Assembly (NCBI GenBank): GCA_029287915.1 | Contig: JARFQE010000125.1 | Location: 18,114-82,113 of the forward strand | Direction: 5' to 3' | Origin: Arenicellales bacterium | GTDB lineage: Bacteria > Pseudomonadota > Gammaproteobacteria > BMS3Bbin11 | DNA length: 64,000 nucleotides | Shown here: positions 5,159-35,835 of the stretch, in pieces | Layout: each line of letters opens with the position of its first letter | Position numbering within the stretch: the stretch's first letter is position 1 | The notes under the pieces: generated by a model | The model's input: only the letters and a program-made list of their open reading frames with translations | The model's database searches: none | What the model was told of the DNA's origin: nothing | Made by a program: the position numbers and the translations under genes

Positions 5159-5428
5159 GTGAGAAAATAGCCAGCATGGTCAGCTGAATCACTCTGTACA
5201 GGAAGCCTGCTCTGGATGTGATATGTTTTTGAATGGCACAAAATGTCCCATTCATCCTGCCATAAAGGTACAAGTTGTCGCAGTCAGTGTCAGAACAGCA
5301 GAGATAATTTTAGACAAATTTCATATACTTGGTAACATTTCTATCCAAGCTGATGAGATAGACGAACTGGAACATATCTTGCTTTATTACAGGAATTAGA
5401 TGACTTTTTTGCAGGCACAAACCAGTCC

Positions 5429-6442
5429 ATGACTATAACAGAAACAGGCACATGCAATCAGCTGACAGACCGCTTTGGCCGGCACATCAATTACCTGCGC
5501 ATCTCTGTCACAGACCGTTGCGATTTGCGCTGTGTCTACTGCATGTCAGAAGACATGCAGTTTGTGCCACGTGCGCAGCTGCTGACACTTGAAGAAGTAA
5601 GCCGCATAGGACGAATATTCACCGAGCTTGGTGTCCATAAAATACGCATAACCGGCGGCGAACCATTAACACGACGCAATGTCATAGAAGTCTTCAGGCA
5701 ACTTGGCAAACTGGATGGATTAAAAGATCTGACGCTTACCACAAACGGTACACAGCTGGACAGGTTTGCCAGTGAGCTGCGCGATGCCGGTGTTAAGCGC
5801 ATCAACATCTCATTGGATACTCTGCAACAGGAGCGCTTCAGTAAAATTACCCGCACAGGAAGACTACAGCGTACGCTGGCGGGTATCGATGCTGCCCTGG
5901 CAGCTGGTTTTGAAAAGATAAAGATTAACTCTGTAATCCTCAGAAACCGTAATCATGACGAGATTATTGAACTGGTAGAATTTGCTCACTCACGTGGCAT
6001 AGACATTAGTTTTATCGAGGAAATGCCGCTCGGCATTATTGGAGATCATGATCGTGCAGAAGCGTACATCTCCAGCGACGAGATTCTCGATATAATCAAG
6101 CAACGCCATGAACTGCTGCCCACAACAGAGAGCACCGGCGGCCCCTCACGTTACTACAGGCGTACCGATAACAGTGCACGTGTCGGCTTTATCTCTCCGC
6201 ATAGCCATAACTTCTGCGATGACTGCAATCGCGTCAGGCTGACAGCAGAAGGCCGGCTGCTGCTGTGCCTGGGCCAGGAACATTCGGTTGACCTGAGGCG
6301 GGTGGTACGTGCCAACCCGGCGGATGATGCCCCATTGCGGCAGGCGATTATTGATGCCATGACAATCAAACCGCGCGGACATGATTTCGATTTGACCAGC
6401 CAGCCCGTCATCCTGCGACATATGAACAGCACTGGCGGATAA
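5429..6442 (+). CDS. moaA: GTP 3',8-cyclase MoaA (radical SAM, molybdenum cofactor biosynthesis)
   Basis: 337 aa. CDLRCVYCM radical-SAM cluster motif near the N-terminus, C-terminal second-cluster cysteines (CDDCNRVRLTAEG), typical MoaA length. Confidence 0.95.
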   Translation: MTITETGTCNQLTDRFGRHINYLRISVTDRCDLRCVYCMSEDMQFVPRAQLLTLEEVSRIGRIFTELGVHKIRITGGEPLTRRNVIEVFRQLGKLDGLKDLTLTTNGTQLDRFASELRDAGVKRINISLDTLQQERFSKITRTGRLQRTLAGIDAALAAGFEKIKINSVILRNRNHDEIIELVEFAHSRGIDISFIEEMPLGIIGDHDRAEAYISSDEILDIIKQRHELLPTTESTGGPSRYYRRTDNSARVGFISPHSHNFCDDCNRVRLTAEGRLLLCLGQEHSVDLRRVVRANPADDAPLRQAIIDAMTIKPRGHDFDLTSQPVILRHMNSTGG

Positions 6443-6478
6443 GACGCCCGACAATGCAGGCAGCTGAGTAAAAAAATT

Positions 6479-7366
6479 ATGACAAAACAGAGTGAAGCCA
6501 TAGCCAGCAGCCCACTCCCGGAGATGACCAATGCCGGTTTACAGGCCTCCACAGCGATCACCGCAATTGATGAATTTGGCCAGCCACGCGCAGGACATAT
6601 CGCGGCTGAACGGGCACTGACGGTTTACCTCGACAAACAGGAAATTGTTACCCTGATGACGCTCGGCACCCAGCCAGAGCTGCTAGTACTTGGCTGGCTG
6701 CGCAATCAGCGACTGCTGACGGATGTGTCCCAGATCAAGGCCATCCAGGTTGACTGGGAAACCGGTTCTGCCGCCATCACTACGCGCAATGGTATTGCTG
6801 ATCTTGATGTCAAACTTGGGCGCCGCACCGTGACCACGGGCTGCGGGCAGGGAACCGTATTTGGCAGCCTGATGGATGACCTCGAGCACATCAGCCTGCC
6901 GCGTGTTCGCGTGCGCCAGTCGACGCTATACAGACTTCTGGACACCCTTAGCCAGCATAACGAAGTCTATAAACGTGCAGGCGCCGTACATGGCTGTGCA
7001 CTGTGCATGGATCACCGTATGCAGCACTTTGTAGAAGATGTCGGACGTCATAATGCAGTTGATGCAATTGCCGGCCAGATGTGGCTGAACGGCACACAGG
7101 GACATAACAAGCTTTTTTACACCACTGGCCGATTAACCTCCGAGATGGTAATCAAGGTTGCACAAATGGGAATACCCGTGCTGCTTTCCCGTTCGGGTGT
7201 TACCGAGATGGGCCAGGCACTGGCTGAAAAGATTGGCGTCACGCTGATCGCACGCGCAAAGGGTAAGCACTTCCTTGTTTATAACGGTGCCGAGCAGGTC
7301 GAATTTGACGCTATGCCGGAAAAACCTCTCTATCATTCACCGAGCACAGCACCGGGGCGGCGCTAA
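6479..7366 (+). CDS. fdhD: Formate dehydrogenase accessory sulfurtransferase FdhD
   Basis: 295 aa. GRRTVTTGCGQG (active Cys loop), EDVGRHNAVDAI, LSRSGVTEMGQALAEKIGVTLIARAKG; collinear with E. coli FdhD. Confidence 0.9.
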   Translation: MTKQSEAIASSPLPEMTNAGLQASTAITAIDEFGQPRAGHIAAERALTVYLDKQEIVTLMTLGTQPELLVLGWLRNQRLLTDVSQIKAIQVDWETGSAAITTRNGIADLDVKLGRRTVTTGCGQGTVFGSLMDDLEHISLPRVRVRQSTLYRLLDTLSQHNEVYKRAGAVHGCALCMDHRMQHFVEDVGRHNAVDAIAGQMWLNGTQGHNKLFYTTGRLTSEMVIKVAQMGIPVLLSRSGVTEMGQALAEKIGVTLIARAKGKHFLVYNGAEQVEFDAMPEKPLYHSPSTAPGRR

Positions 7367-7369
7367 ATC

Positions 7370-8284
7370 ATGTCTGCGGTCATGCATCCGGAAACAGGCG
7401 TGTTTATGAGCGTCAGGCAGGTAGCGGAATATCTGCACCTGAACGAGAAGAAGATTTATGCCCTGGTGAGCGAGGGTGCCATACCGGCGACCAAGGTCAC
7501 CGGTAAATGGATGTTTCCACGCGAACTCATCGATCGCTGGATGCTTGATTCCGCGCATGGCGGACTGTTAACCGACCGTCTGGTGATTGCCGGCAGCGAC
7601 GACCCACTACTGTATCGCATCGTAACTGAATTTGCCCGTGATACCGGTGCACATGCACTGATCAGCTACACTGCTACCGGGACTCGTCTTGGTCTTGATC
7701 TTTTGCAGGCACAGCGCGCTGATGCGTGTGGTATCCACTGGGGACCGGCAAATGAGAGTCACACGCGCCACCCTGCTCTGCTGCGCCAGTATTCACAGCA
7801 TCACAACTGGGTACTGATCAGGGCCTTTCGTCGTGAACAGGGTCTTATCGTCAGTCCACCTGTGCTTAATTACACGCAGCAGATAGAAGACTTGTTCGAT
7901 CGCCAGTTTCGCTGGGCACTGCGCCAGAACGGTGCCGGCGCGCAACGCTACCTGCTGGAAATAATTGGCAAACATGGCCTTAATGCCGCTTCCTTGAAAT
8001 CGGAAGTGACTGCTCTCTCGGAACGCGAAGCAGCCGCGGCCATTGCGATGGACCTTGCAGATGTGGCCCCGGGTGCCCGTTCGGTGGCAACCGAATTTGG
8101 ACTTGGTTTCATCTCCCTGGGCTGGGAGTCATTTGACTTTGTGCTACCACGTCCGATCTGGTTCCGACGCCTGTTCCAGGATCTGATCACCCGGCTGCAC
8201 AACGGACAGAGCCATGAACTGGCCGATGAACTCACCGGTTATGATTTATCGGGCTGCGGGCAACTGCTGTGGGGCGATGACTGA
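7370..8284 (+). CDS. Transcriptional regulator: excisionase-type HTH fused to a periplasmic-binding-protein-like (ModA/TupA-like) domain; TunR-like architecture
   Basis: MSVRQVAEYLHLNEKKIYALVSEGAIPATKVTGKWMF is an excisionase/MerR-like HTH. It is followed by a ~250-aa domain with PBP type-2 character. The gene lies between fdhD and the tup/sigma-54 region. Confidence 0.55.
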   Translation: MSAVMHPETGVFMSVRQVAEYLHLNEKKIYALVSEGAIPATKVTGKWMFPRELIDRWMLDSAHGGLLTDRLVIAGSDDPLLYRIVTEFARDTGAHALISYTATGTRLGLDLLQAQRADACGIHWGPANESHTRHPALLRQYSQHHNWVLIRAFRREQGLIVSPPVLNYTQQIEDLFDRQFRWALRQNGAGAQRYLLEIIGKHGLNAASLKSEVTALSEREAAAAIAMDLADVAPGARSVATEFGLGFISLGWESFDFVLPRPIWFRRLFQDLITRLHNGQSHELADELTGYDLSGCGQLLWGDD

Positions 8285-8576
8285 TTGCCAGTGGCGCCTA
8301 AATTTTAATGATGCATAGCCCATTCACCCATCATCAAACTACCGATTGCTTCTCTTGCTACAGTCCCTGTAAGAATCAAGCATTGAGTAACTTAACATTT
8401 CAGCAATGACCATCTGAGACTGTCTGCTTAGGCATTATCAGAAATTGTACATATACTCGTTACCGGAGACGCCTTTGTTGACCATATTTTCTGCAATTCG
8501 ACAAGTATGCAATGGCTCAGCGATTCCATGCCGCTTGGTCACCTAGCAAGCAGTAATACTGCTCATCACAGATCGC

Positions 8577-9998
8577 TTACGCCGATTCGCTTGTACCCCA
8601 GGCCTGTACTTTACGTTCCAGCGTCTTGCGCGACACACCAAGCAACCTGGCAGCCGCTGACTTGTTGCCACCCTCCCTGTCCAGGACTTTTAGAATATGA
8701 CGCTTCTCGACCGCTTCCAGCAGCATTGAATCAGCATCATCTTCTGTCACTGTTTGCTGCCCGTTGGCAGAAATACCACGCAGGCACTGTTCGGGAGTCT
8801 GATCCAGCAGCAGACAACGCTCAATCACATTTTTTAATTCACGGACGTTGCCCGGCCAGTTGTAACTGCGTAACTGAGCCAGTTCCCGATCCCTTATCTG
8901 ATGCGGTGGCACACCCATATCGGCAGATAGTTTCTGCATGAAAAACTCTACCAGGTCCGGGATATCATCAGGGCGTTCACGCAAGGTAGGCATGCGCACA
9001 GTAACAACATTCAGCCGATAGAACAGGTCCTCACGAAAATTACCTTTCTCGACCTCGTCTCCCAGCGCTCTGTTGGTCGCGGCAATTACGCGAACATCAA
9101 CCGGTATCTCACGGTTGGATCCTACCGGCCGGATTGACTGCTGTTCCAGAACCCGTAGTAGATGAACCTGCATGGAAAGCGGCATTTCACCAATTTCATC
9201 GAGAAACAGCGTACCATTACTGGCATAGTTGAATAATCCTTCGCGCCCCTGGTGAGCTCCAGTGAATGCTCCCTTGACGTGACCAAACAATTCACTTTCC
9301 AATAACTCGGCCGACATCGCGCCGCAATTGATCGGCACGAAGCTGCCGCTGCGTCCACTCCATGCATGGATCGCCCTCGCTGCCAGCTCCTTGCCGGTCC
9401 CTGATTCTCCTTCAATAAGCACTGTCGTTGGCATGGGTGCGATGCGCTTAATCACTTCACAGACATTTTTCATAGTCTGGCACTGTCCAACGATACCGCT
9501 GTCATAAAAATGATCAACCTGGCGACGCAGGACGACATTTTCCCTCTGTATACGCTGACTCTGCATGCAGCGCGCAACGGCTGCCATGATCTGATCCGTG
9601 CGAAATGGCTTCTGGATCAGATCCACAGCTCCGGCGCGCAATGCATCGATAGCGGTATCCACTGTGGCCTGGGCCGTGATAAAGATAAGCGAGGTACTGC
9701 TGCCCAGTCCGAGTAGCTTTGTTACCCATGCCAGTCCGGATTGGCCAGGCAAGTGCAGATCAGCAATGATAAGGTCGAAATTACAGCGCTCGGCAAGTGC
9801 CTGCGCTGTATTCACGTCAGCAGCCAGTTCAACCAAGCCGAAGTGTTTCTCCATACCATTGCACAGAAAGTTCCGGGTGTCCGCGTCTGCATCGATAATC
9901 AGCACAGAATTTTGTTTCAGCGACAATCCCTGTGAGTCGCCACTTAACGTTGTCTGCGTAACGCTAAATTCATCATTCTTGAAAGCTTGTTCGGCCAT
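8577..9998 (-). CDS. sigma-54-dependent response regulator (NtrC family enhancer-binding protein: REC-AAA+-HTH)
   Basis: 473 aa. Receiver domain (VLIIDADADTRNF...DLIIADLHLPGQSG), Walker A GESGTGKE, GAFTGA sigma-54 contact motif, ESELFGH, C-terminal Fis-type HTH. No histidine kinase is adjacent. Confidence 0.9.
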   Translation of the reverse strand: MAEQAFKNDEFSVTQTTLSGDSQGLSLKQNSVLIIDADADTRNFLCNGMEKHFGLVELAADVNTAQALAERCNFDLIIADLHLPGQSGLAWVTKLLGLGSSTSLIFITAQATVDTAIDALRAGAVDLIQKPFRTDQIMAAVARCMQSQRIQRENVVLRRQVDHFYDSGIVGQCQTMKNVCEVIKRIAPMPTTVLIEGESGTGKELAARAIHAWSGRSGSFVPINCGAMSAELLESELFGHVKGAFTGAHQGREGLFNYASNGTLFLDEIGEMPLSMQVHLLRVLEQQSIRPVGSNREIPVDVRVIAATNRALGDEVEKGNFREDLFYRLNVVTVRMPTLRERPDDIPDLVEFFMQKLSADMGVPPHQIRDRELAQLRSYNWPGNVRELKNVIERCLLLDQTPEQCLRGISANGQQTVTEDDADSMLLEAVEKRHILKVLDREGGNKSAAARLLGVSRKTLERKVQAWGTSESA

Positions 9999-10253
9999 TA
10001 ATCATATCCTTATTGGTCTCTTTTTATAGTTTTAATGGGAAAATTATCGTTATTTATCGTTAATAGACAACCCGCAACTTAACACATACGCGGCATTAAA
10101 CAATATAGTGTGACTAAATGTACCAATGGTTGACATGTTTTTGCGACATTTTTTCCCACACCATCAATGACTGTATAGCGAAACTCGGCCACCATTTTTT
10201 GTTGTCCCTGTGAATTGCTGTGGTCGTCGAAATGTCACATAGAAATCGGCTTG

Positions 10254-10270
10254 CTGGCATTATTCTTGCT
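10254..10270 (+). promoter_or_regulatory. Putative sigma-54 -24/-12 promoter upstream of tupA
   Basis: CTGGCAT-tattc-TTGCT has GG and GC at the canonical 12-nt spacing. It is 64 nt upstream of the tupA start and divergent from the NtrC-type activator gene. Confidence 0.5.
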
Positions 10271-10333
10271 GCTATGAATTAAAGCTGAGCAAAAATGATT
10301 CACCACACACAATAAACATCAAAGGAACCCAGG

Positions 10334-11203
10334 ATGCGATTCACCCGTCTGTTAAAAGTCTGCCTGCTGTTTATCAGTCTAAAACTCTCATTTGCTGCCA
10401 TCGCTGCAGAAGCTGGCAACGACCATGTATTAAAACTCGCCACCACAACAAGCACCGAAAACTCGGGACTGCTGCGTCACCTGTTGCCGGTATTTGAACG
10501 CGATACGGGTTACAAGGTACATGTCATCGCGGTAGGTACCGGCAAGGCACTGCGCATGGGGCGTGACGGCGATGTCGATGTCGTTCTGGTACACGCCCCC
10601 GCGGCTGAACAGAAATTCGTCGATGACGGGCATGGCGTGAAGCGCGTCGGTGTCATGTACAATGACTTTGTTATAGTCGGTCCGGTAGATGACCCGGCAG
10701 CCGCCGGCAACAGCAGCAGCGGCAATGAAGCGCTGAGCAGAATTGCAAAAAAAAAGGCAGTTTTTATCTCAAGGGGTGACGATTCGGGGACCAATAAAAA
10801 AGAACTGTCATTATGGAGAGAGGCCGGCATCAGACCACAGGAACCATGGTATCGAGAAGCCGGACAGGGTATGGGCAAGGTTCTGCAAATGGCAGGAGAA
10901 CTTTCAGCCTATACCCTCACTGACCGTGGGACCTGGCTGGCATTCATGAATAAATCACCATTACGTATTGTTTACCAGGACGACCCAGTGCTGTTCAACC
11001 CCTACGGTATCATCGCGGTCAACCCGGCACGTTATCCGGATATAAACTACACCGGCGCCCAGGCACTGATAAAGTGGATCACTTCACCGGCTGGCCAACT
11101 TTTAATAGGCAACTACACCGTTGCGGATTCGCTGCTATTCACCCCATCAGCCGATACGGGTCACCTGGCCAGTGAATATTCTGCTGCCGGCAAGACTGAA
11201 TAA
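10334..11203 (+). CDS. tupA: Tungstate ABC transporter substrate-binding protein TupA
   Basis: 289 aa, signal peptide, TTTSTENSGLL anion-binding motif characteristic of TupA rather than ModA. Confidence 0.8.
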   Translation: MRFTRLLKVCLLFISLKLSFAAIAAEAGNDHVLKLATTTSTENSGLLRHLLPVFERDTGYKVHVIAVGTGKALRMGRDGDVDVVLVHAPAAEQKFVDDGHGVKRVGVMYNDFVIVGPVDDPAAAGNSSSGNEALSRIAKKKAVFISRGDDSGTNKKELSLWREAGIRPQEPWYREAGQGMGKVLQMAGELSAYTLTDRGTWLAFMNKSPLRIVYQDDPVLFNPYGIIAVNPARYPDINYTGAQALIKWITSPAGQLLIGNYTVADSLLFTPSADTGHLASEYSAAGKTE

Positions 11204-11226
11204 AGCGGCAATTATCGGCACTCACT

Positions 11227-11928
11227 ATGTCTTCACTGAGCGGTGCAACCCTTGATGCTATAAGCCTTCTGGCAGGAGGCGATGCCCAGCTATGGGGAAT
11301 CATCGGTATTTCATTTCGCGTATCCACAACAGCAATTTTGATTGCCATCCCGCCATCGCTTTTGATTGCCTTCTTGCTTGCCTATGGCCGTTTTCCCGGA
11401 CGACGGCTGCTAATTTCGGTGTTCAGCACTCTGCTCTCGCTACCTGCAGTGGTGGTCGGACTGACGCTATACCTGGTATTGTCCAGGCATGGCCCGCTGG
11501 GTGACTGGAGACTTCTATTCTCCCAGACTGCCATGGTGATGGGTCAAATTGTGCTCTGTGTACCGATCCTGGTTGCCATGGGACATTCAGCTTTGCAGGC
11601 CGCTGACCGACGTGCATGGGAGACGGCCAGAACACTCGGTGCCGGCCCACTGCGCGCTGTACTGACTGTGATGCATGAAGTTCGCTTCGGACTGTTTGCC
11701 GCTCTACTGGCCGCTTATGGTCGCATCATTGCCGAGGTAGGCGCCTCGATGATGCTGGGTGGCAATATCCTTAACTACACCCGCAACATCCCAACCGCGA
11801 TTGCACTGGAAACCAGCAAGGGTGAATTCGCTCAGGGCATCGCACTCGGCATTGTCCTGCTGGTACTGGCGTTCATCCTCAATGGCTTGTTGCATTACCT
11901 GCAGGGCAAGGGACGTTTTGCTGTATGA
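11227..11928 (+). CDS. tupB: Tungstate ABC transporter permease TupB
   Basis: 233 aa multi-TM permease with ABC EAA-like loop; overlaps tupC start. Confidence 0.8.
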   Translation: MSSLSGATLDAISLLAGGDAQLWGIIGISFRVSTTAILIAIPPSLLIAFLLAYGRFPGRRLLISVFSTLLSLPAVVVGLTLYLVLSRHGPLGDWRLLFSQTAMVMGQIVLCVPILVAMGHSALQAADRRAWETARTLGAGPLRAVLTVMHEVRFGLFAALLAAYGRIIAEVGASMMLGGNILNYTRNIPTAIALETSKGEFAQGIALGIVLLVLAFILNGLLHYLQGKGRFAV

Positions 11929-12650
11929 GTTCGATGCTCAACCTCCAGTTCAATAATCTGTGCAAACGTTATCGTCGGCGTACTATTCTCGTTAATCTCG
12001 ATATCACCCTGCGGGATGGAGAATGCACACTGCTTTGCGGCTCCAATGGTGCCGGCAAAACAACCCTGTTGAGGATTATGGCCGGGCTCGAGAAACCGGA
12101 TCTGGGAACCATTGATTTCGGCTTCGGGCAAATGAAATGGCGGCGCTGCAAAAAGACTCTGCAGGAGAAGATCATGTACCTGCATCAACAGCCCTATATG
12201 TTCGATACAAGTGTCAGGAAGAACCTCGCTTATGCGCTGCCATCTGGTCTGAGCAATGCAGAGTGCAGTCAGCGTATCGATGAGGCATTGGAGTGGGCTG
12301 ACCTCAGGCGCCTGGCAACGGCCCCGGCAACAAACCTGTCAGGCGGTGAAGCGCAACGGGTTGCGCTGGCTCGGGCATGGCTGCGCATCCCACTGGTATT
12401 GCTGCTGGATGAGCCAATGGCCAACATGGACCAGGAATCCCGCCTGCGCACACACAATCTGCTGCGCCAACTAAAGGATCAGGGCATGGCGATCATCATC
12501 ACAAGCCATGACACAATGCAGTTCCAGTCACTATCGGACAGGCAATTAATACTCAAGGATGGCAAAATATCCATAGAACTCTCAACTAACCAGGCAGAGA
12601 ATGTAACGGCATTTCCGCTCGCTCAGACTTCCCTGCACGATACTGCATGA
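11925..12650 (+). CDS. tupC: Tungstate ABC transporter ATP-binding protein TupC
   Basis: 241 aa. Walker A GSNGAGKTT, signature LSGGEAQRVALARA, Walker B LLLDEP. It has no C-terminal TOBE domain, so it is TupC-type rather than ModC-type. Confidence 0.8.
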   Translation: MSSMLNLQFNNLCKRYRRRTILVNLDITLRDGECTLLCGSNGAGKTTLLRIMAGLEKPDLGTIDFGFGQMKWRRCKKTLQEKIMYLHQQPYMFDTSVRKNLAYALPSGLSNAECSQRIDEALEWADLRRLATAPATNLSGGEAQRVALARAWLRIPLVLLLDEPMANMDQESRLRTHNLLRQLKDQGMAIIITSHDTMQFQSLSDRQLILKDGKISIELSTNQAENVTAFPLAQTSLHDTA

Positions 12651-13252
12651 TAACGCCTGAAAAAAACAACATTACCGCCGTCATCCTGGCGGGTGGCCGT
12701 GGCAGTCGCCTCGGTGGCCAGGACAAGGGTATGCTGGAGCTCAATGGTAGACCATTGATTGAGCATATCCTTGATGCAGTCAAACCACAGGTTAAGACCG
12801 TCATTATCAATGCGAATCGCAACCATCAATTCTACGCTGGTTATGGTTACCCGGTGGTCAGCGATGACATGACAAATTTCCAGGGCCCATTGGCTGGTTT
12901 TGCCGCCGCGCTCTCCGCATGCAATACTAGTTTCGTCATGACCCTTCCCTGTGATGGCCCATCTGTACCGGTAGATCTTGCAGCTCGATTGTGCAAGGCA
13001 ATTATTGATAATGAAGCCGAATTAGCTGTTGCTCACGATGGTAAACGTTTGCAGCCAGTATACGCGTTAATACCACGCTCTTTACTTGCCAGCCTGCTGA
13101 CATTTCTCAATGCAGGTGATCGTAAGATAGACCTCTGGTATTCACAACATAAAGTAGCACTGGCAGATTTTTCCGATGTTATGAATAGCTTTTTCAATAT
13201 CAACACCGAAAAGGATCGTCGCCTGGCCACCAAACAAGAAATATCAGCATGA
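12647..13252 (+). CDS. mobA: Molybdenum cofactor guanylyltransferase MobA
   Basis: 201 aa, AVILAGGRGSRLGGQDKGML...LPCDGP; overlapping start/stop with neighbours. Confidence 0.9.
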   Translation: MITPEKNNITAVILAGGRGSRLGGQDKGMLELNGRPLIEHILDAVKPQVKTVIINANRNHQFYAGYGYPVVSDDMTNFQGPLAGFAAALSACNTSFVMTLPCDGPSVPVDLAARLCKAIIDNEAELAVAHDGKRLQPVYALIPRSLLASLLTFLNAGDRKIDLWYSQHKVALADFSDVMNSFFNINTEKDRRLATKQEISA

Positions 13253-13812
13253 GTAAGATATCAGCACCCATAGTGGGATTTTGCGCCTGGAGTGGCACAG
13301 GCAAGACGACTTTGCTAGCCCAGCTAATACCAATACTGGTCGCGCAGGGTCTAAGGATCGCTGTCGTCAAACATGCTCATCATGATTTTGATATCGATCA
13401 TCCCGGCAAGGACAGCTTTGAACTACGCAAAGCCGGTGCCAGCCAGATGCTGATTACATCGCGCAAACGTATGGCGGTAATTACCGAATTCGAACAACAT
13501 CGTGCAGAACCTTCACTCTATGATGCGCTTGAACGGATCAATATGCAGGAGTCTGATCTTGTCCTGGTAGAAGGATTCAAACACGAACCAATTAAAAAAA
13601 TTGAACTACACCGTGCAGAACTTAAAAAACCATTAATGTTTCCTGATGACCCAAATATTATTGCAATCGCCAGCGACCAGGCAATCATTGAAAACAGGAG
13701 TACGCTGCCACAACTGAACCTCAATAAACCGCAGCAAATAGCACAATTTATTGTAGACAATATCCTTGCAACAGAATCCTCTTTGACGTCATCAGGAGTC
13801 TGTCTACCGTGA
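13249..13812 (+). CDS. mobB: Molybdopterin-guanine dinucleotide biosynthesis adaptor MobB
   Basis: 187 aa, P-loop GFCAWSGTGKTTLL, VKHAHH motif. Confidence 0.9.
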   Translation: MSKISAPIVGFCAWSGTGKTTLLAQLIPILVAQGLRIAVVKHAHHDFDIDHPGKDSFELRKAGASQMLITSRKRMAVITEFEQHRAEPSLYDALERINMQESDLVLVEGFKHEPIKKIELHRAELKKPLMFPDDPNIIAIASDQAIIENRSTLPQLNLNKPQQIAQFIVDNILATESSLTSSGVCLP

Positions 13813-15077
13813 GCAATGTTATTAGATCCGTATCCTGTTGCGATGACTTGGCGGAAGCTGACACACTAACTGTTGATGAAGCACGCCGGCAAATTATTGA
13901 TAAAATTAATCCCATTACCAGTAGTGAAAAACTCAGCTTGCGAAATGCTCTCAGCAGAATACTGGCAGAGGATATCATTTCACCATTGGATGTACCGGGC
14001 CATACCAACTCTGCGATGGATGGTTATGCAGTGTCAGGTAATGACCTGCCACAGTCTGGTGAGCAGATTTACCAGGTTATTGGCAAGTCCCTAGCCGGTG
14101 CTCCATTTAACGGTAATTGCAATGCAGGCCAGTGTGTCCGCATCATGACCGGAGCAGTGATGCCGGATGGAACCGATACCGTCATCATGCAGGAACATGT
14201 AGCAGCAACTGCAACAGATACAGTGCAAATTGGTGACGGCCACCGCCCCGGGCAGAATGTTCGCCAGGCAGGTGAAGATATTTCAGCAGGTGGAACTGTA
14301 TTACAGACATCACACAAACTGACACCTGCTGACCTCGGTATCCTGTCGTCTTTAGGGATAGGCGAAGTCAAGGTGCGCCGGCGTCCACGTGTAGCATTCT
14401 TCTCCACCGGAGATGAGCTGCGTTCGATCGGTGAGTCGCTTGCGGAAGGCGATGTGTATGACAGCAATCGATATAGCCTGTATGGAATGCTTAAACGGCT
14501 GGACGTTGAAATACTGGACATGGGCGTCGTCAAAGATGACATCGATGAATTGAGAAATGCTTTTTCAAACGCTGCCTCAATGGCTGACGTAGTGATCACT
14601 TCCGGTGGTGTATCAGTCGGAGAGGCCGACTATATAAAACCCATTCTTGAACAGACAGGTGAAATAAATTTCTGGAAAATCGCCATGAAACCTGGGCGGC
14701 CACTGACCCATGGCCGGATAGGCAACAGCCTGTTCTTCGGCCTGCCCGGAAATCCAGTAGCAGTAATGGTCACCTTTTACCAGTTTGTTCAACCTGCACT
14801 GAATTATCTGGCTAGCGGCACAGAAAGCCTGCCATGGACCATGCTGGCTACCAGCAGCAATAATATTAACAAGCGCCCCGGCCGTTACGAGTTCCAGCGT
14901 GGAATACTCGAACAGGGTGCTGGAGGTCAGCTGACAGTCAGAAAAACCGGTCAGCAGGGCTCAGGTGTTCTGACCTCGATGAGTCGTGCCAACTGCTTCA
15001 TTTTATTACCAGAAAATTGTGATGGAGTCTCGGCTGGTGATGAGGTTCGTGTACAGCTGTTTGACACCTTTATCTGA
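13809..15077 (+). CDS. moeA: Molybdopterin molybdotransferase MoeA
   Basis: 422 aa, SGGVSVGEADY and GLPGNPVA motifs, MoeA N/C domain layout. Confidence 0.9.
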   Translation: MSNVIRSVSCCDDLAEADTLTVDEARRQIIDKINPITSSEKLSLRNALSRILAEDIISPLDVPGHTNSAMDGYAVSGNDLPQSGEQIYQVIGKSLAGAPFNGNCNAGQCVRIMTGAVMPDGTDTVIMQEHVAATATDTVQIGDGHRPGQNVRQAGEDISAGGTVLQTSHKLTPADLGILSSLGIGEVKVRRRPRVAFFSTGDELRSIGESLAEGDVYDSNRYSLYGMLKRLDVEILDMGVVKDDIDELRNAFSNAASMADVVITSGGVSVGEADYIKPILEQTGEINFWKIAMKPGRPLTHGRIGNSLFFGLPGNPVAVMVTFYQFVQPALNYLASGTESLPWTMLATSSNNINKRPGRYEFQRGILEQGAGGQLTVRKTGQQGSGVLTSMSRANCFILLPENCDGVSAGDEVRVQLFDTFI

Positions 15078-18441: not shown

Positions 18442-18640
18442 TTTTTATATTTTTTACATTCAAGTGACCGGTCAACTGCAGTAGCTGCACAGAAAAATAT
18501 ATTCATAGACTATCTGCGATAGACGGTAATAAAAATACGACTGGTGTAGCAATGTTTAATTATTCCTTAATTTCCAACTGTTAAATTTACCCTGAAGAAA
18601 ATGAATATAAGAACCAGCACACTGCCAGGAGAAATCGGTC

Positions 18641-21373
18641 ATGTTTAGAAAATTTTTCGAGTCGTATGGTATAGCAATTATTTGCATCATTGCTGCAATT
18701 ATATACGTTTCTATGGCCGACGCTGCCAACGCAGAAGACAGACGCCCAATATCAATTACTGAGGCCAGCTGGGAATCCGGCGATGGGCGACTGGTCATCA
18801 CTGGCAGAAATGCCGGCAGACGCGGCACCGTTAAAATCTATAGTGTTGCTTCGAATGAACTGCTGGATACAGTGACAGCCAATAGAGAAGGACGATGGAC
18901 ATCAGAAACCAGCCCTGATCCTGCACCATGTAACGTAAGAGCTGTCGCACATGATACAAGCGATGAAAACCCGGTACTCGATGCGCCCGCAGATTGCGAC
19001 GGCGGACCTGGCGATGGTGAAGGACCACTGCCTGGCACTAGTGATACCTCCATCAACTCTACCAGCCAGAATGGCATGCCAGGCGCACCGGTTGCAGAAA
19101 TACCGGCGCCGGGAGAGCCGGGCTCAGGAGATGGTAACCACGTCATCCTGGCAATCAATGATCTGGGCATGCACTGCGGCGACCTGGATACTCGTATCTC
19201 CAGTATCCTGCCGCCTTTCCAGGTACTGCTGGCACAGGTGATTCAGAAGGGCAGCACCCCAAGCTTGAACCCTGTCGGCGTGAGTGTGGAATACTCCGCG
19301 GCCTCCAACCCTGCCGACCCGGCAGCAGGTACGGGTCAGACCTTCCCCGGCCGGCTGTCAGATGGCAGCACTTACAAGACTAACTTCTGGGATGCAGTCG
19401 CGCGCGGTTCTTATGATGCGTTCTACCCTGGCGGACTTGGCATTACGCCTCTGGCATCCGGAGGGTTTCCGGTAACGACGGACATAAGCCTTCCCGTACC
19501 AAATGTGGAAGAGCTTTACATTGGCCACGACGGCGTAGTCAAAAGCGGTGACGAGAGTCTCACGGCTGTGCAGCACGCGATGCCAGGGCTGGCCGCGCCG
19601 TACCTGCTTAATGAGCCACAGGCAGTCAAGGAACACTATGGTGACAAGCCGTTCTTTATTGACTTCCCGTTCGGCTATGTGGCGGAGGATGTCAACTGGC
19701 ACGAAGGAGCAGGTATCCCATTCGCAGCCTATGATGACTTCGGCCGCGAGAACGCCTACCCACTGGTGCGCGTCGCAGCCAAGCAGGGTGCTACCACAGT
19801 GGCCACAGTCGACACGGTGCTGCCGATTTCGGGTGAAGCAAGTTGTATGAACTGCCACTCTGATCCTGCAGATGTTCAGAACAGCCGCACGGAACAGCCG
19901 ACCAGTGCACTGACGGACGTCGGACTGCCTGTAGTGACTAGCATTAATGACCCGCAGTACGGTGACGTGCCTCACGATGTAAGTGTCGAGTATGCAGCTG
20001 ATATCAACATTCTGCGACTACATGACCTCAAACATGGAGCGAAATATGTAAATACCGATGGCAGCTCGACTCCATGCTTAGTCAGCGAGGCCAACCCGAA
20101 TGGCAACTCAAACTGTCTGATCAACCAGGCGCTGGAACAAAACAAACCGGCAGTCTGCCAGGTATGTCACTACACCCCGGCACTGGATCTGGCGCAGGTC
20201 GGCCCAATGGCCGGAGCTCCCGGTAGCCCCGCTAATGGGCGTAATCAGTTAGCGCATTCGAGCAACTCCAACGTGATGCACAGTCACCATGGTCAGTTTG
20301 CCGACCTGTTCCCGCCTATGCCTGCACCGATACAGTCAGCTGACACTGGTGCCATCGAAAACCAGAGCGAGCGTCTGCAAGTGCTTGAGGATACCTGCTA
20401 CCAGTGCCACCCCGGTACCAATGTTCAGTGTCTGCGTGGTGCGATGTTCAATGGCGGCATGTTATGTAATGACTGTCATGGTGATATGGAGCAGGTAGGT
20501 GCAGATTTCTCGCAGAACGTGTCACCAACCAATCCGGCCCCGGCCGCGCTGATTCTGGGTGGTAATTTTTATGACCATACAGACCCTCAACCGCGCGTAC
20601 CCTGGGCCAACGAACCGGGTTGCGGTTCCTGCCATACCGGTGACGCCAGTGATAACCTGGCGGGCACCGTCGATAGCATCATCAATTTGCGGGATATGAG
20701 AGGCAACCTGGACGGCCTGCGCCTGCGCAGGGCCTACCGCACAGGCGACATCAAGGCCACACCCATCGTGCCGACCAACAAACGCTTTGCAGAACCTGCG
20801 GTGCCGGTCTCGTTTGCAAACGCAGACGGGACGGTATTCAATAATCCTGGTGCGGGTAATCCGCAGCTGTATCGCGTGAGCACGGGACACGGTGGTGTGA
20901 TGTGTGAAGGCTGTCATGGTGCGACACACGCAGAGTGGCCCAACGCTAATCCCAATGCAAATGACAATGTAACTGCGAAACAGTTGCAGGGCCATACCGG
21001 AACCATCACCGAGTGCACGACATGCCATTCATCAGGTTTCAGTATTGACGATTTCAAGGGTGAGTTTGACAGCAATGGCTTGATGAAAGGCCCTCACGGC
21101 ATGCATCCGGTCGATAATGAATTATGGACCCACAGCCACAAAGAAGTCTTCGAAGACAGTGCCACTCCGAAGAATACGTGTCAGGCCTGTCATGGCAACG
21201 ATGGTCTCGGTACCGTATTGTCTCGGACTGCGGCTGACAGGGTGTTCGAGTGTAAAGAACGTGGCACGCTGTGTGGGTCAGATCAGAAAACAGTGTCCAT
21301 AGCAAAAGGCACACCGATCGGCTGTGTTGAGTGTCATTCAAATGAAATTGCTGGAGGGCACGATGACGATTGA
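18641..21373 (+). CDS. Large secreted multihaem c-type cytochrome (9 CxxCH motifs)
   Basis: 910 aa. N-terminal hydrophobic signal/anchor (GIAIICIIAAIIYVSMADAANA). A haem-free ~400-aa N-terminal region contains a Gly/Pro-rich linker. Nine CxxCH motifs then follow in the last ~510 aa: CMNCH, CQVCH, CYQCH, CNDCH, CGSCH, CEGCH, CTTCH, CQACH, CVECH. Confidence 0.85.
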   Translation: MFRKFFESYGIAIICIIAAIIYVSMADAANAEDRRPISITEASWESGDGRLVITGRNAGRRGTVKIYSVASNELLDTVTANREGRWTSETSPDPAPCNVRAVAHDTSDENPVLDAPADCDGGPGDGEGPLPGTSDTSINSTSQNGMPGAPVAEIPAPGEPGSGDGNHVILAINDLGMHCGDLDTRISSILPPFQVLLAQVIQKGSTPSLNPVGVSVEYSAASNPADPAAGTGQTFPGRLSDGSTYKTNFWDAVARGSYDAFYPGGLGITPLASGGFPVTTDISLPVPNVEELYIGHDGVVKSGDESLTAVQHAMPGLAAPYLLNEPQAVKEHYGDKPFFIDFPFGYVAEDVNWHEGAGIPFAAYDDFGRENAYPLVRVAAKQGATTVATVDTVLPISGEASCMNCHSDPADVQNSRTEQPTSALTDVGLPVVTSINDPQYGDVPHDVSVEYAADINILRLHDLKHGAKYVNTDGSSTPCLVSEANPNGNSNCLINQALEQNKPAVCQVCHYTPALDLAQVGPMAGAPGSPANGRNQLAHSSNSNVMHSHHGQFADLFPPMPAPIQSADTGAIENQSERLQVLEDTCYQCHPGTNVQCLRGAMFNGGMLCNDCHGDMEQVGADFSQNVSPTNPAPAALILGGNFYDHTDPQPRVPWANEPGCGSCHTGDASDNLAGTVDSIINLRDMRGNLDGLRLRRAYRTGDIKATPIVPTNKRFAEPAVPVSFANADGTVFNNPGAGNPQLYRVSTGHGGVMCEGCHGATHAEWPNANPNANDNVTAKQLQGHTGTITECTTCHSSGFSIDDFKGEFDSNGLMKGPHGMHPVDNELWTHSHKEVFEDSATPKNTCQACHGNDGLGTVLSRTAADRVFECKERGTLCGSDQKTVSIAKGTPIGCVECHSNEIAGGHDDD

Positions 21374-34221: not shown

Positions 34222-35835
34222 GTGTCATTATTACCAGTAGGCATAATTGCACCTTTCCTTTACAGAACGGCCTGGGAGCATCAGCGTCAGGAATTGATAG
34301 AGAAGCACCAGCTACTGGCACAGAATCTTGCTGAGCCACTAAAGATGTATGTCAGTAGTCACCATCAGTCATTACAGATTCTGGCCAGCACTATCAATCA
34401 ATTGTCCTATCAGGATTTAGCACAATATCAGAGCTTAGTTGACCAGGCAGTCCATTTTCTTGATGGATTCAATGCCATAGCGCTACTCTCTACTGATGGA
34501 GAACTCAATGCGTTATCTGTTGCTGACAACATCCAAAACGGCTCACATAGACCAGACTATAGCACGCACCCGTGTTTCGAGCGTGTTCTGGAAAACCGGG
34601 CCTCTGACATCTCCAGTGTTCATGCCAGCTTAATTACTGGCGAACCGGCCATTGTCATGAGCCAGGCCATAATAAATTCCAGCGGACAGATTAGCGGAGT
34701 TCTGTTTGCAGAACTTGATTTGAAACCTGTTGAGATAATTCGCAGCAACATTCAGTTTGGCATAAAAGGGCATGCTGCTATTGTTGATAGCGAAGGTCAG
34801 GTGATTGCACACCCAAACCCTGAATGGGTTAAAGAAATACGTGATATTTCAGACTGGCCGATTGTTCAGAAAATGATCAAGGGTGAAACTGGTGTAATGG
34901 AATTTTATTCCAGTTTCATGAAAGCCTCCATGGTTGCGGGATTTGCAGGAATCAACGAACTTGGCTGGGGCATCATGGTTCCTCAACCAATGTCTGAAAT
35001 AGAAGATACCGTTAACGCAATGATATTCAGGGTCGTGATATGGTCACTCTTTGGTATTCTAGTCGCAGTCATTGCCGCGTTCTTTCTGACACGATGGATT
35101 ACTAAACCAATAAACACTCTTGCTTCTAAAGCCAGTAAGCTGGATATTTCTTCATCTAAAGATTCTTTAGGTGTGGTACCTGAACACAGCCCACTGGAGG
35201 TGCGCCAGCTGTGGGATGCACTATCCATGCTGGTAGTTCGCCTCAGAGACTCAAGTAGCGAGATTGTTCAGTTAAACGACTCTCTACAAAAAAAGGTTGA
35301 CCGGGCAACACACGAGTTACGAGAAGCCAATGAGCGCCTGCATAAATTGAGTGTGCGTGACTATTTGACCGAAATTGGCAACCGGCGATATTTTGAAAAT
35401 ACCCTTAATGAAACACTAAACAATTCTTCTGGCGCTGATATCGGTATCATGTTACTGGATATTGATAATTTTAAGCAGATTAATGACAAACATGGTCATG
35501 CAGCCGGTGATTACGTATTAACCCGTGTCGCCGAAGAATTACACAAGTCTACTCGTCCCGGCGACATTATTGCGAGATATGGAGGAGATGAGTTTGTTGC
35601 ACATTTCAATTGTGATGAGAGTACGCTGCTTAACAGGGCTGAACAGCTACGTCAGACCATGGAGAACACAACCTTTACCTGGAACGACGAAAAAATACAT
35701 GTCACACTTTCTATCGGTGTACTCAGTCAAAAATATGATGCCAGCACAAGTATAGATGAATTGATGAGCGCGGCAGACAATGCGATGTATGAATCCAAAC
35801 AATCGGGTAGAAACAAGGTTTCAAAATACCATTAG
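34222..35835 (+). CDS. Sensor diguanylate cyclase (periplasmic Cache-like domain, HAMP, GGDEF)
   Basis: 537 aa as called, from a GTG inside a TM helix. Second TM IWSLFGILVAVIAAFFL, HAMP, coiled-coil, then RYGGDEF with intact A-site. The true start is probably ATG 34139 (see poly-G tract). Confidence 0.85.
   Translation: MSLLPVGIIAPFLYRTAWEHQRQELIEKHQLLAQNLAEPLKMYVSSHHQSLQILASTINQLSYQDLAQYQSLVDQAVHFLDGFNAIALLSTDGELNALSVADNIQNGSHRPDYSTHPCFERVLENRASDISSVHASLITGEPAIVMSQAIINSSGQISGVLFAELDLKPVEIIRSNIQFGIKGHAAIVDSEGQVIAHPNPEWVKEIRDISDWPIVQKMIKGETGVMEFYSSFMKASMVAGFAGINELGWGIMVPQPMSEIEDTVNAMIFRVVIWSLFGILVAVIAAFFLTRWITKPINTLASKASKLDISSSKDSLGVVPEHSPLEVRQLWDALSMLVVRLRDSSSEIVQLNDSLQKKVDRATHELREANERLHKLSVRDYLTEIGNRRYFENTLNETLNNSSGADIGIMLLDIDNFKQINDKHGHAAGDYVLTRVAEELHKSTRPGDIIARYGGDEFVAHFNCDESTLLNRAEQLRQTMENTTFTWNDEKIHVTLSIGVLSQKYDASTSIDELMSAADNAMYESKQSGRNKVSKYH

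What the first reader, a model, noticed from the sequence alone, without database searches (positions are those of the whole stretch)
18641..21373. Orphan 910-aa secreted nonahaem c-type cytochrome with a haem-free ~400-aa N-terminal region
Nine canonical CxxCH motifs are confined to the C-terminal ~510 aa. This is a relatively low haem density, with long spacers that may hold additional His/Met ligands. They follow an N-terminal signal/anchor, a possible beta-sandwich domain (ISITEASWESGDGRLVITG...), a Gly/Pro-rich linker and a ~220-aa domain with no haem motif. The gene stands alone. No cytochrome c maturation, porin (MtrB-like) or partner reductase genes are adjacent; its neighbours are ygiQ, a DUF2288-like ORF and an HD-domain protein. 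It does not resemble the compact haem packing of MtrC/OmcA, HAO or NrfA in motif spacing. A cell-surface or periplasmic electron conduit, or a novel octa/nona-haem oxidoreductase, in an organism that also carries soxXA and sqr, is plausible.
Basis: partly seen in the sequence, partly recalled or inferred. Interest (0 to 1): 0.7.

Follow-up and report, generated by a model that had tools for sequence, protein, structure and literature searches.

The report
Secreted nine-haem cytochrome, c553O family
The gene encodes a real, exported nine-haem cytochrome, but it is not an orphan: it is the counterpart of Methylococcus capsulatus MCA0338 and belongs to a large, highly conserved family (named "cytochrome c553O") whose structure and exact function are still unsolved.

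Summary
ORF 18641-21373 (+) encodes 910 aa with exactly nine CxxCH motifs, all between aa 402 and 899 (0.03 expected by chance). Upstream of them are a Sec signal, a small Ig-like domain, a linker and a haem-free beta-rich domain. The neighbours are ygiQ, DUF2288 and an HD gene. "Orphan" is wrong. There are over 900 homologues, 521 clusters (50% identity) at E<=1e-30, and hits in at least 378 species genomes. These include purple sulfur bacteria, chemosynthetic symbionts, Sedimenticola, Halieaceae and Methylococcus. The protein is 60% identical along its length to the M. capsulatus Bath "cytochrome c5530 (=c553O) family protein" (969 aa, 101 kDa, nine motifs), most likely MCA0338. That protein has been detected in culture supernatant and surface fractions. 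Deleting a protein published as its paralogue, MCA0421, lowers anodic current. The conserved unit is the beta-domain (invariant NDLGMHC) plus nine haems; the N-terminal Ig/PKD/cadherin modules vary. A confident AlphaFold core model (pLDDT 91.6) matches no solved structure, and no MtrC, NrfA, HAO or OTR profile hits it. It is most likely a secreted or surface electron-transfer cytochrome. An enzyme role centred on the invariant His-Cys is not excluded. It is a new member of a known, poorly understood family.

The parts
18627..18631 (+). Shine-Dalgarno-like AGGAG, 9 nt before the ATG
   Evidence: Read from the upstream sequence printed.
18641..21373 (+). Complete gene for the 910-aa nonahaem c-type cytochrome (stop codon included). 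Monocistronic: the upstream DUF2288 gene is divergent and the downstream HD gene is convergent.
   Evidence: The identical protein is called on 8 contigs.
18641..18733 (+). Sec-type signal peptide, aa 1-31. Predicted cleavage is A-N-A|E, or alternatively S-M-A|D after aa 26. There is no canonical lipobox.
   Evidence: Sequence; AF2 helix 2-29. Relatives have either SPI-like or clear lipoprotein signals.
18746..19003 (+). Small N-terminal Ig-like beta-sandwich, aa 36-121 (ISITEASWESGDGRLVITG...). It belongs to the variable accessory part of the family.
19004..19048 (+). Start of the Gly/Pro-rich linker, aa 122-136. This is the non-conserved junction where relatives carry PKD, cadherin-like, FN3 or other Ig-like inserts.
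   Evidence: Low pLDDT at 123-133. Most relatives cover only ~85% of the query, starting near aa 131-137.
19049..19840 (+). Conserved haem-free domain of the family core, aa 137-400. It begins with SINSTSQ and forms a beta-sandwich with long, ordered loop insertions.
19157..19189 (+). NDLGMHCGDLD motif, aa 173-183. H178 and C179 are invariant down to 34% identity. This is one of the two most conserved blocks of the whole protein.
   Evidence: The motif is retained in the minimal tandem modules of P0265.
19841..21370 (+). Nonahaem domain, aa 401-910.
19844..19858 (+). Haem motif 1, CMNCH (aa 402-406)
   Evidence: invariant in A1-A3.
20156..20170 (+). Haem motif 2, CQVCH (aa 506-510)
   Evidence: invariant.
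20396..20410 (+). Haem motif 3, CYQCH (aa 586-590)
   Evidence: invariant. Lies within the Pfam Cytochrome_C7/c3_2 local hit at 585-671.
20429..20431 (+). Invariant non-haem cysteine C597 (in CLRGAM). It is a possible disulfide partner of C179, or a functional thiol.
   Evidence: Invariant in A1, A2 and A3. Conserved in P0265. The pairing itself is inferred, not shown.
20465..20479 (+). Haem motif 4, CNDCH (aa 609-613)
   Evidence: invariant.
20621..20635 (+). Haem motif 5, CGSCH (aa 661-665)
   Evidence: invariant.
20903..20917 (+). Haem motif 6, CEGCH (aa 755-759)
   Evidence: invariant.
21014..21028 (+). Haem motif 7, CTTCH (aa 792-796)
   Evidence: invariant.
21179..21193 (+). Haem motif 8, CQACH (aa 847-851)
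   Evidence: invariant.
21323..21337 (+). Haem motif 9, CVECH (aa 895-899)
   Evidence: invariant.

Best explanation
The gene encodes an exported nine-haem c-type cytochrome of the 'cytochrome c553O' family. It is the orthologue of the M. capsulatus protein most likely to be MCA0338. Proposed mechanism: the pre-protein crosses the inner membrane through Sec. The general cytochrome c maturation system, encoded elsewhere in the genome, attaches nine haems. The holo-protein is then released to the cell surface or medium. Some relatives are instead lipid-anchored. The variable N-terminal Ig-like module acts as a stalk or adhesion element. The conserved core works as one unit: a beta-sandwich 'cap' carrying the invariant His178-Cys179 sits against a nine-haem chain. 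There are enough conserved histidines for all haems to be bis-His coordinated, so the core would pass electrons between the cell envelope and external partners. Candidate partners are Fe(III) or Mn(IV) minerals, humics, metal ions, electrodes, or in sulfur oxidisers possibly solid reduced substrates. Shown here: gene integrity, motif count, family membership, conservation pattern, lack of a fixed genetic partner, and a fold with no solved counterpart. Taken from the literature: extracellular or surface location of the orthologue, and reduced current in a mutant of a published paralogue. Inferred: haem ligation, secretion route, direction of electron flow and the physiological partner in this organism.
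For: Gene and motifs. Family size: 928 hits with the top 120 all >=57% identical, 378 genome loci, and 521/1123/1914 clusters at E<=1e-30/1e-10/1e-3. Orthology: 60.5% identity over aa 131-900 and 36.8% over the N-terminal Ig domain to P0122. P0122 is 969 aa, 101.0 kDa, has nine CxxCH and is annotated 'cytochrome c5530 family protein [M. capsulatus str. Bath]'. This matches MCA0338, reported at 101 kDa and found in culture supernatant at all time points with 59 unique peptides; it is a predicted T2SS substrate and was seen earlier in the surface fraction (PMC4257694). MCA0338 is listed as a c553O family member or paralogue in PMC517821 and PMC4831470. Deleting the published paralogue MCA0421 lowers anodic current (PMC6281684). 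Nearly all full-length members keep nine CxxCH plus the NDLGMHC domain. Conserved non-motif His residues 178, 461, 547, 550, 750, 763, 785, 819, 822 and 833 give ten candidates for nine haems. Export signals are present throughout, including MtrC-like 'L-x-A-C-GGGG' lipoprotein signals in part of the family. The accessory domains (PKD, cadherin-like, FN3, Ig) are typical of extracellular proteins. No catalytic multihaem family matches.
Against: No localisation or expression data exist for this organism. The window protein has no lipobox, and no outer-membrane conduit or T2SS gene is adjacent. The supernatant study also found periplasmic and cytoplasmic proteins, so some lysis or vesicle release is possible. 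The genetic phenotype is for MCA0421, not MCA0338, and I could not compare the MCA0421 or Occ sequences directly. The core is as conserved as a housekeeping enzyme (57-82% identity across orders). The beta-domain carries an invariant His-Cys pair. Both features are unusual for mere electron wires such as MtrC/OmcA and fit an active site at least as well.
Confidence: 0.6

Rival explanations
1. It is a multihaem enzyme rather than a wire. In this reading the conserved beta-domain places the invariant His178-Cys179 (with Cys597 nearby) at one haem and creates a catalytic centre. That centre could be a His/Cys-ligated or open-site haem, or a Cys-based or metal site. The other eight haems feed or drain it. 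Possible substrates are an inorganic sulfur compound, a nitrogen oxide, or a metal ion such as Cu(II).
For: The blocks around aa 177-196 and 597-616 are the most conserved of the protein, equal to the haem-binding blocks. H178, C179 and C597 are invariant down to 34% identity and in the minimal tandem modules. Overall identity of 57-82% across orders is enzyme-like. A TlpA/ResA-like thiol-disulfide oxidoreductase (WCGPC) recurs next to the gene in 15 of 80 loci and lies directly downstream on the same strand in about 10. The family is common in sulfur oxidisers and their symbionts. The gene stands alone, as a self-contained enzyme gene might.
Against: No similarity to any catalytic multihaem family or to SoxA/TsdA was found. 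There is no special haem motif such as CxxCK or CX15CH. Enough conserved histidines exist for nine bis-His haems. The family also occurs in methanotrophs and heterotrophic Halieaceae, so a sulfur-specific reaction is unlikely. The redoxin could simply serve haem attachment. From memory of Bergmann et al. 1999, which I could not read here, only low-spin haems were seen by EPR in c553O.
Confidence: 0.25
2. It is a soluble periplasmic electron carrier or store (a 'capacitor') that buffers electrons between respiratory or lithotrophic modules. In this reading the extracellular detection in M. capsulatus reflects leakage or vesicles.
For: The window protein has a plain Sec signal, no lipobox and no nearby outer-membrane or secretion genes. 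From memory, c553O was originally purified as a soluble protein and interpreted as periplasmic. Periplasmic and cytoplasmic proteins were also present in the supernatant proteome.
Against: MCA0338 had the most unique peptides listed in the supernatant proteome table and was found at all growth phases. Published c553O paralogues are recovered in surface extracts. The adhesin-like Ig, PKD and cadherin modules, and the MtrC-like lipoprotein signals with Gly-rich tethers, are typical of surface proteins.
Confidence: 0.13
3. It is an annotation artefact: two genes fused by a frameshift, or a decaying pseudogene.
For: Only the within-gene GC3 contrast: 0.40 in the first 136 codons against 0.57-0.64 in the core.
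Against: The uninterrupted ORF has a good RBS. The architecture is identical and the alignment collinear in dozens of homologues, including the N-terminal Ig domain in M. capsulatus. The identical protein appears on 8 independent contigs. All nine motifs are intact.
Confidence: 0.01

Closest known systems
Methylococcus capsulatus Bath MCA0338 ('cytochrome c5530/c553O family protein', AAU90385.1, UniProt Q60BX5)
   Same: Both have a Sec signal, a homologous small N-terminal Ig-like domain, the same beta-domain with NDLGMHC and nine CxxCH in the same order. Identity is 60.5% over aa 131-900. Both genes stand alone.
   Different: The Methylococcus protein carries an extra PKD module between the Ig domain and the core (969 vs 910 aa). 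The host is a methanotroph rather than a sulfur-oxidiser-like Arenicellales relative. I assign P0122 to locus MCA0338 from its name, its 101-kDa mass and its signal peptide, not from a locus-tag record.
Cytochrome c553O (Occ, MCA0423) and MCA0421, M. capsulatus surface multihaem cytochromes
   Same: They are published as paralogues of MCA0338, with PKD plus multihaem architecture (IPR022409 and IPR011031), and are surface-associated. Deleting MCA0421 reduces current to an anode. From memory of Bergmann et al. 1999: subunits of ~120 kDa, about 8-9 haems c, low-spin.
   Different: They are copper-repressed and sit in a 25-kb cluster with other cytochromes and a beta-barrel protein. MCA0338 is not in the list of copper-responsive genes. 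Their sequences could not be obtained here, so direct homology to the window protein is untested. They are not among the 150 best representatives, which implies a more distant relationship.
MtrC/OmcA-type outer-membrane decahaem cytochromes (Shewanella)
   Same: Both are exported multihaem proteins that combine haem-free beta-domains with haem domains. Part of the family has lipoprotein signals followed by Gly-rich tethers. Both have a proposed role in extracellular electron transfer.
OcwA, nonahaem surface cytochrome of Thermincola potens (NrfA/OTR-related)
   Same: Nine haems and a cell-surface location (PMC6703420 and PMC9250108, listed).
   Different: No sequence or fold similarity was detected to any PDB chain of the NrfA, OTR or OcwA group. 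OcwA has no beta-sandwich cap domain (general knowledge).

Membership tests
Cytochrome c553O family (MCA0338-type nonahaem subgroup) | Full-length collinear homology to a member annotated and published as belonging to the family | tested here: met
   60.5% identity over aa 131-900 and 36.8% over aa 17-121 to P0122. P0122 is named 'cytochrome c5530 family protein' by NCBI and UniProt. MCA0338 is listed as a family member and as a paralogue.
Cytochrome c553O family (MCA0338-type nonahaem subgroup) | Nine CxxCH motifs in conserved order, preceded by the haem-free domain with the NDLGMHC motif | tested here: met
Cytochrome c553O family (MCA0338-type nonahaem subgroup) | N-terminal export signal (Sec or lipoprotein) | tested here: met
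   Sequence features and predicted N-terminal helix. Of 185 full-length members, 131 are SPI-like and ~38 lipobox-like. This rests on rules applied to the sequence, not on a trained predictor.
Cytochrome c553O family (MCA0338-type nonahaem subgroup) | Sequence homology to the type protein Occ (MCA0423) itself | not tested
The link rests on the literature.
Cytochrome c553O family (MCA0338-type nonahaem subgroup) | Covalently bound low-spin haems c; extracellular or surface location | not testable with these tools
   Location is known only for the M. capsulatus proteins. It needs haem staining, spectroscopy and fractionation.
MtrC/OmcA/MtrF outer-membrane decahaem cytochromes | Significant match to the MtrC/MtrF pentahaem-domain profile; ten haems in a four-domain arrangement | tested here: not met
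   No PF22113 hit at E<=1 in hmmscan, only a 'faint' precomputed hit. Nine haems and one beta-domain.
MtrC/OmcA/MtrF outer-membrane decahaem cytochromes | Fold similarity to solved MtrC/OmcA structures | tested here: not met
MtrC/OmcA/MtrF outer-membrane decahaem cytochromes | Genetic linkage to a periplasmic decahaem (MtrA) and a porin (MtrB) | tested here: not met
   Absent in the window and in relatives. No recurrent porin or cytochrome appeared in the clustering of 80 loci.
Catalytic multihaem enzymes (NrfA, HAO/HDH, OTR, MccA, OcwA) | Profile or sequence match to the family; special active-site haem motif (CxxCK, CX15CH and the like) | tested here: not met
   Pfam and NCBIfam give none. 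PDB phmmer and profile searches give none for the core. There is no CxxCK or extended motif.
Catalytic multihaem enzymes (NrfA, HAO/HDH, OTR, MccA, OcwA) | Fold similarity to solved members | tested here: not met
SoxA/TsdA-type His/Cys-ligated sulfur cytochromes | SoxA-TsdA cytochrome domain (PF21342) with a Cys distal ligand | tested here: not met
   No PF21342 hit on this protein, whereas the window's own SoxA at 58018-58788 hits it at 3.7e-27. Whether C179 ligates a haem is not testable here.
Cytochrome c3/c7 (PF14522, PF14537) | Profile score above the Pfam gathering threshold | tested here: met
   PF14522 scores 33.3 bits against a cut-off of 24.8, and PF14537 scores 29.9 against 25, but only for aa 585-671 (haems 3-5). 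This shows a generic closely spaced multihaem segment, not membership of the small c3/c7 proteins.

The most novel reading that the evidence does not exclude
The beta-sandwich 'cap' with its invariant His-Cys, together with the nine-haem chain, may form a structurally new class of extracellular oxidoreductase. It would be shared by free-living sulfur oxidisers, purple sulfur bacteria, chemosynthetic animal symbionts, methanotrophs and coastal heterotrophs. It would catalyse a still unrecognised extracellular redox reaction, for example on metal ions, solid sulfur or metal sulfides, or reactive N/S species, rather than merely conducting electrons. The widespread distribution of a family once thought unique to M. 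capsulatus would then mark an overlooked biogeochemical activity.
Probability: 0.2. Interest if true: 0.75.

Novelty: new member of a known kind. Interest (0 to 1): 0.4.

Why it matters
The family itself is worth attention for four reasons. First, it was described as unique to M. capsulatus, yet it is present in at least 378 species genomes, including symbionts of Solemya, lucinids and Lamellibrachia. Second, its core is conserved at housekeeping level. Third, a confident model matches no solved structure. Fourth, the only functional data link it to the cell surface and to extracellular electron transfer. If it is the outward-facing redox module of sulfur oxidisers and methanotrophs at oxic-anoxic interfaces, it bears on how these bacteria use minerals, metals or electrodes when oxygen is scarce. 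Cultured, genetically tractable carriers exist to test this.

Tried and rejected
- Sequence searches against the PDB. The single-sequence search found nothing. The profile search hit only PKD domains in the variable N-termini of relatives.
- AFDB50 fold search, meant to reach Occ and MCA0421. The library was not available.
- Retrieving the Occ and MCA0421 sequences. Cluster look-ups of ten long, distant representatives returned Thiodiazotropha, a Bathyaustriella symbiont and a Vicinamibacterales member, but no Methylococcus paralogue.
- Bergmann et al. 1999. The paper is not held under its DOI or its PMC id, so its biochemical details are cited from memory only.
- Literature on 'nonahaem' cytochromes. 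The Ferrigenium NHC, MtoC and OcwA have different architectures and gene contexts, so they are not this family.
- Searches for PKD plus multihaem plus sulfur oxidisers, and for the Solemya symbiont plus multihaem, found nothing. The 'c5530' text search was swamped by unrelated strings.
- Sigma-54 promoter upstream of the gene. There is no match in 18442-18640, and window-wide counts equal chance. The sigma-70 and terminator scans were at background level.
- Horizontal transfer judged from composition. The whole-gene GC3 of 0.563 is within 1.4 sd of the other window genes. The gene is syntenic with related Arenicellales-like MAGs. The result is inconclusive, so no transfer is claimed.
- Frameshift or fusion artefact: rejected.
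Full report
**1. The observation**

The window contains an uninterrupted ORF at 18641-21373 on the + strand (910 aa, ATG start). An AGGAG sits 9 nt upstream. The translation has exactly nine canonical CxxCH motifs, at aa 402, 506, 586, 609, 661, 755, 792, 847 and 895. It has no CxxCK or longer-spaced motifs. Only 0.03 CxxCH would be expected from its own Cys/His content.

The N-terminus (MFRK, an 18-residue hydrophobic stretch, then A-N-A|E) reads as a Sec signal without a canonical lipobox. AlphaFold predicts a very confident Ig-like sandwich at aa 36-121. A flexible Gly/Pro-rich linker follows, then a haem-free beta-rich domain up to the first haem motif.

The neighbours are a YgiQ-type radical-SAM gene, a divergent DUF2288 gene and a convergent HD-domain gene. 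No cytochrome-maturation, porin or partner-cytochrome gene is adjacent. The description is therefore correct. The haem density is about one per 57 aa of the haem domain, which is not unusual for multihaem cytochromes.

**2. Not an orphan**

A search of the 5.8-billion-protein collection returned 928 significant hits, and the best 120 are all 57-82% identical. Most cover about 85% of the query, starting near aa 131-137. Their N-termini carry different accessory modules: PKD, cadherin-like, FN3 and other Ig-like folds.

A profile search of 1.84 billion cluster representatives found 521 clusters at E<=1e-30, 1,123 at E<=1e-10 and 1,914 at E<=1e-3. In one-genome-per-species data, 378 loci encode a relative. 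They include:

- Chromatiaceae (Thiodictyon, Thiocystis, Thiohalocapsa), Thiohalomonadaceae, Thiogranum and Arenicellales
- Sedimenticola selenatireducens
- the Solemya velum and Lamellibrachia barhami symbionts
- Halioglobus and other Halieaceae, and Mangrovimicrobium sediminis
- Methylococcus capsulatus

More distant representatives come from Ca. Thiodiazotropha (lucinid symbionts), a Bathyaustriella symbiont and even a Vicinamibacterales MAG.

All 57 aligned close members have exactly nine CxxCH. Nearly all full-length representatives, down to about 34% identity, keep nine motifs plus an NDLGMHC-like motif 160-240 residues upstream of haem 1. So the conserved evolutionary unit is 'beta-domain plus nonahaem domain', and the N-terminal Ig/PKD part is an exchangeable accessory. 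One distant member (P0265) is a tandem of two compact modules. Each has the beta-domain, five CxxCH and two CX4CH, and each still keeps the His-Cys and the cysteine equivalent to C597.

**3. Link to a named family**

The M. capsulatus hit (L031) encodes a 969-aa protein. Its Bath-strain version (AAU90385.1, Q60BX5) is annotated 'cytochrome c5530 family protein', a corruption of c553O. It weighs 101.0 kDa and has nine CxxCH. It aligns with the window protein at 60.5% identity over aa 131-900 and at 36.8% over the N-terminal Ig-like domain. This makes it a full-length orthologue with one extra PKD module.

The M. capsulatus genome paper lists MCA0338, 0421, 0423, 0424, 2259 and 2160 as the cytochrome c553O family, 'unique to M. 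capsulatus' (PMC517821). Larsen and Karlsen speak of five c553O paralogues (PMC4831470).

The secretome study reports MCA0338 as a 'cytochrome c5530 family protein' of 101 kDa that is SignalP-positive. It was detected in culture supernatant at early, mid and late growth with 59 unique peptides. It is a predicted type II secretion substrate and was previously found in the surface fraction (PMC4257694). Name, mass and signal peptide together identify P0122 as MCA0338 with good but not absolute certainty.

Other family members (MCA0421, 0423, 2259) are copper-repressed and surface-located. Deleting MCA0421 significantly lowers anodic current, and Cu-deficient cells reduce ferrihydrite and anodes better (PMC6281684). 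MCA0338 is absent from the copper-responsive gene lists, which suggests constitutive expression.

I could not read Bergmann et al. 1999. From memory, it reports that c553O is a ~124-kDa subunit with about 8 low-spin haems c, and that a neighbouring paralogue has nine motifs. That detail is unverified here. I also could not obtain the Occ or MCA0421 sequences, so direct homology between them and the window protein remains untested.

**4. What it is not**

- Pfam gives only a local Cytochrome_C7/c3_2 hit on haems 3-5 (aa 585-671). Nothing appears for MtrC/MtrF, NrfA, HAO, c554 or SoxA/TsdA.
- NCBIfam gives nothing.
- The PDB contains no sequence relative of the core.
- The first AlphaFold model was poor in the haem region (pLDDT 63.9), and fold searches saw only the Ig domain.
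- Re-modelling the core (aa 137-910) with 80 diverse sequences gave a confident model (pLDDT 91.6, pTM 0.92).

Within the limits of haem-less models, the fold has no solved counterpart.

**5. Conservation pattern and mechanism**

In the diverse alignment the invariant residues are the nine CxxCH plus H178, C179, H461, H547, H550, C597, M602, H750, H763 and H822. H785, H819, H833 and M177 are nearly invariant. The two most conserved 20-residue blocks are 177-196 (MHCGDLDTRISSILPPFQVL) and 597-616 (CLRGAMFNGGMLCNDCHGDM). Both are as conserved as the haem 6-7 region.

Ten conserved non-motif histidines for nine haems permit an all-bis-His electron-transfer chain. H178 of the beta-domain may cap haem 1, and C179-C597 may form an inter-domain disulfide. 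These assignments are inferences, because I had no access to model coordinates. The same pattern, together with housekeeping-level conservation across orders, is also what an active site would look like. I therefore keep an enzyme hypothesis alive at about 0.25.

**6. Genomic context across the family**

Neighbourhoods differ between genomes. Clustering all flanking ORFs of 80 genome loci showed no recurrent porin, cytochrome or secretion gene. The only recurrent neighbours are:

- a TlpA/ResA-like periplasmic thioredoxin (WCGPC) in 15 loci, directly downstream on the same strand in about 10
- OmpR-type response regulators in 13 loci, with kinases in 5
- sigma-54-dependent PAS activators in 9 loci

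None of these is next to the window gene, and no sigma-54 promoter match lies upstream of it. Some genomes carry two copies.

The ygiQ-DUF2288-cytochrome arrangement of the window is shared with an Arenicellales MAG (L084) and a related MAG (L058). YgiQ is about 90% identical there, but the cytochrome only 59-77%. This places the window organism near Arenicellales and argues for local vertical inheritance. The core's higher GC3 (0.57-0.64, against 0.40 in the first 136 codons and 0.48+-0.06 in other genes) is noted but inconclusive.

**7. Verdict**

The finding is real and well described, but its novelty claim fails. It is a new member of the known, though poorly understood, cytochrome c553O family: the MCA0338 orthologue of an Arenicellales-like sulfur oxidiser.

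The best-supported function is a secreted or surface-attached nine-haem electron-transfer protein involved in exchanging electrons with extracellular partners. My confidence is about 0.9 for family membership and export, and about 0.5 for the extracellular electron-transfer role; I give 0.6 for the combined statement.

The family-level facts are of moderate interest to specialists and are experimentally accessible in cultured carriers. These are its wide distribution beyond Methylococcus, its strong conservation, its invariant His-Cys cap domain, its lack of a solved structural counterpart, and its presence in several chemosynthetic symbionts.

Noticed in passing
L008, L010, L011, L016, L047, L056, L062, L080 (gene directly downstream of the cytochrome gene, same strand); 15 of 80 loci in all: A TlpA/ResA-like periplasmic thioredoxin (~180 aa, WCGPC active site; Pfam AhpC-TSA/Redoxin) recurs next to the cytochrome gene. 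It could be a dedicated reductant for haem attachment or for the invariant C179/C597 pair. It is absent next to the window gene.
   Followed up: partly
L021, L023, L027, L030, L032 and others (response regulator); L035, L041, L046, L080-L082 (sigma-54 activator): OmpR-type two-component regulators (13 loci) and PAS-domain sigma-54 activators (9 loci) lie adjacent to family members in some genomes. This suggests regulated expression. The example sigma-54 activator carries a Cys-rich stretch (CPCAPQGGNCPF).
   Followed up: partly
window 18641-21373: There is a within-gene composition contrast. GC3 is 0.40 in codons 1-136 (signal, Ig domain, linker), 0.64 in the beta-domain and 0.57 in the haem domain. 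The other window genes average 0.48+-0.06. A mosaic origin (native N-terminus, exchanged core) is possible but not shown.
   Followed up: partly
P0265 (900 aa) and P0235 (868 aa): P0265 is a tandem duplication of a compact version of the core. Each ~355-aa module has WNDLGMHC, five CxxCH and two CX4CH sites. P0235 carries 17 CxxCH, with the C-terminal module repeated. These show how the family expands and contracts by modules.
   Followed up: partly
L004 13435-19180 (Solemya velum gill symbiont): A cluster of five redox genes lies 2-8 kb downstream of the family member, on the opposite strand: NapC/NirT-type, c554-like and Cytochrome_cB-type multihaem cytochromes plus a cytochrome b. The arrangement is not conserved in other genomes.
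   Followed up: no
window 18614-18628: An imperfect palindrome (CCAGCACACTGCCAG) ends immediately before, and overlaps, the AGGAG ribosome-binding site of the cytochrome gene. The terminator scan flagged it on the opposite strand. It could be a translational control hairpin or chance.
   Followed up: no
window 1434-15077: There is a long block of molybdo-enzyme accessory and cofactor genes. It contains a NarJ-like chaperone, a poly-ferredoxin, DUF3305/DUF3306, MoaA, FdhD, a PBP-like HTH regulator, a sigma-54 response regulator, an ABC transporter with PBP_like_2 (a molybdate/tungstate-type binding protein), MobA, MobB and MoeA. This is typical of a formate-dehydrogenase or related molybdo-/tungsto-enzyme region.
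   Followed up: partly
window 57520-58788 and 46474-47619: A SoxA/TsdA-type dihaem cytochrome gene (58018-58788, PF21342 at 3.7e-27) is preceded by a 158-aa ORF that may be SoxX. A 381-aa Pyr_redox_2 flavoprotein is compatible with sulfide:quinone reductase. Both support a sulfur-oxidising lifestyle for the host.
   Followed up: partly
window 34222-35835, 39927-41153, 44097-46043; also L006 and L088 directly downstream of the cytochrome gene: The window has many c-di-GMP signalling genes (GGDEF, GGDEF-EAL, Cache-GGDEF). A GGDEF or GGDEF-EAL gene also sits immediately downstream of the family member in M. capsulatus (L088) and in one MAG (L006). This may be coincidence.
   Followed up: no
L011/L039, L035/L037, L028/L041, L038/L067: Several genomes (one MFD MAG, a Thiodictyon MAG, a Chromatiaceae MAG and a PPR MAG) carry two family members on different contigs. 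Paralogy is therefore not restricted to Methylococcus.
   Followed up: no
L044 and L049: Family members appear on contigs binned as 'Bdellovibrio bacteriovorus' and 'Klebsiella sp.' MAGs. At 58-59% identity to the query, these are more likely mis-binned gammaproteobacterial contigs than true hosts.
   Followed up: no
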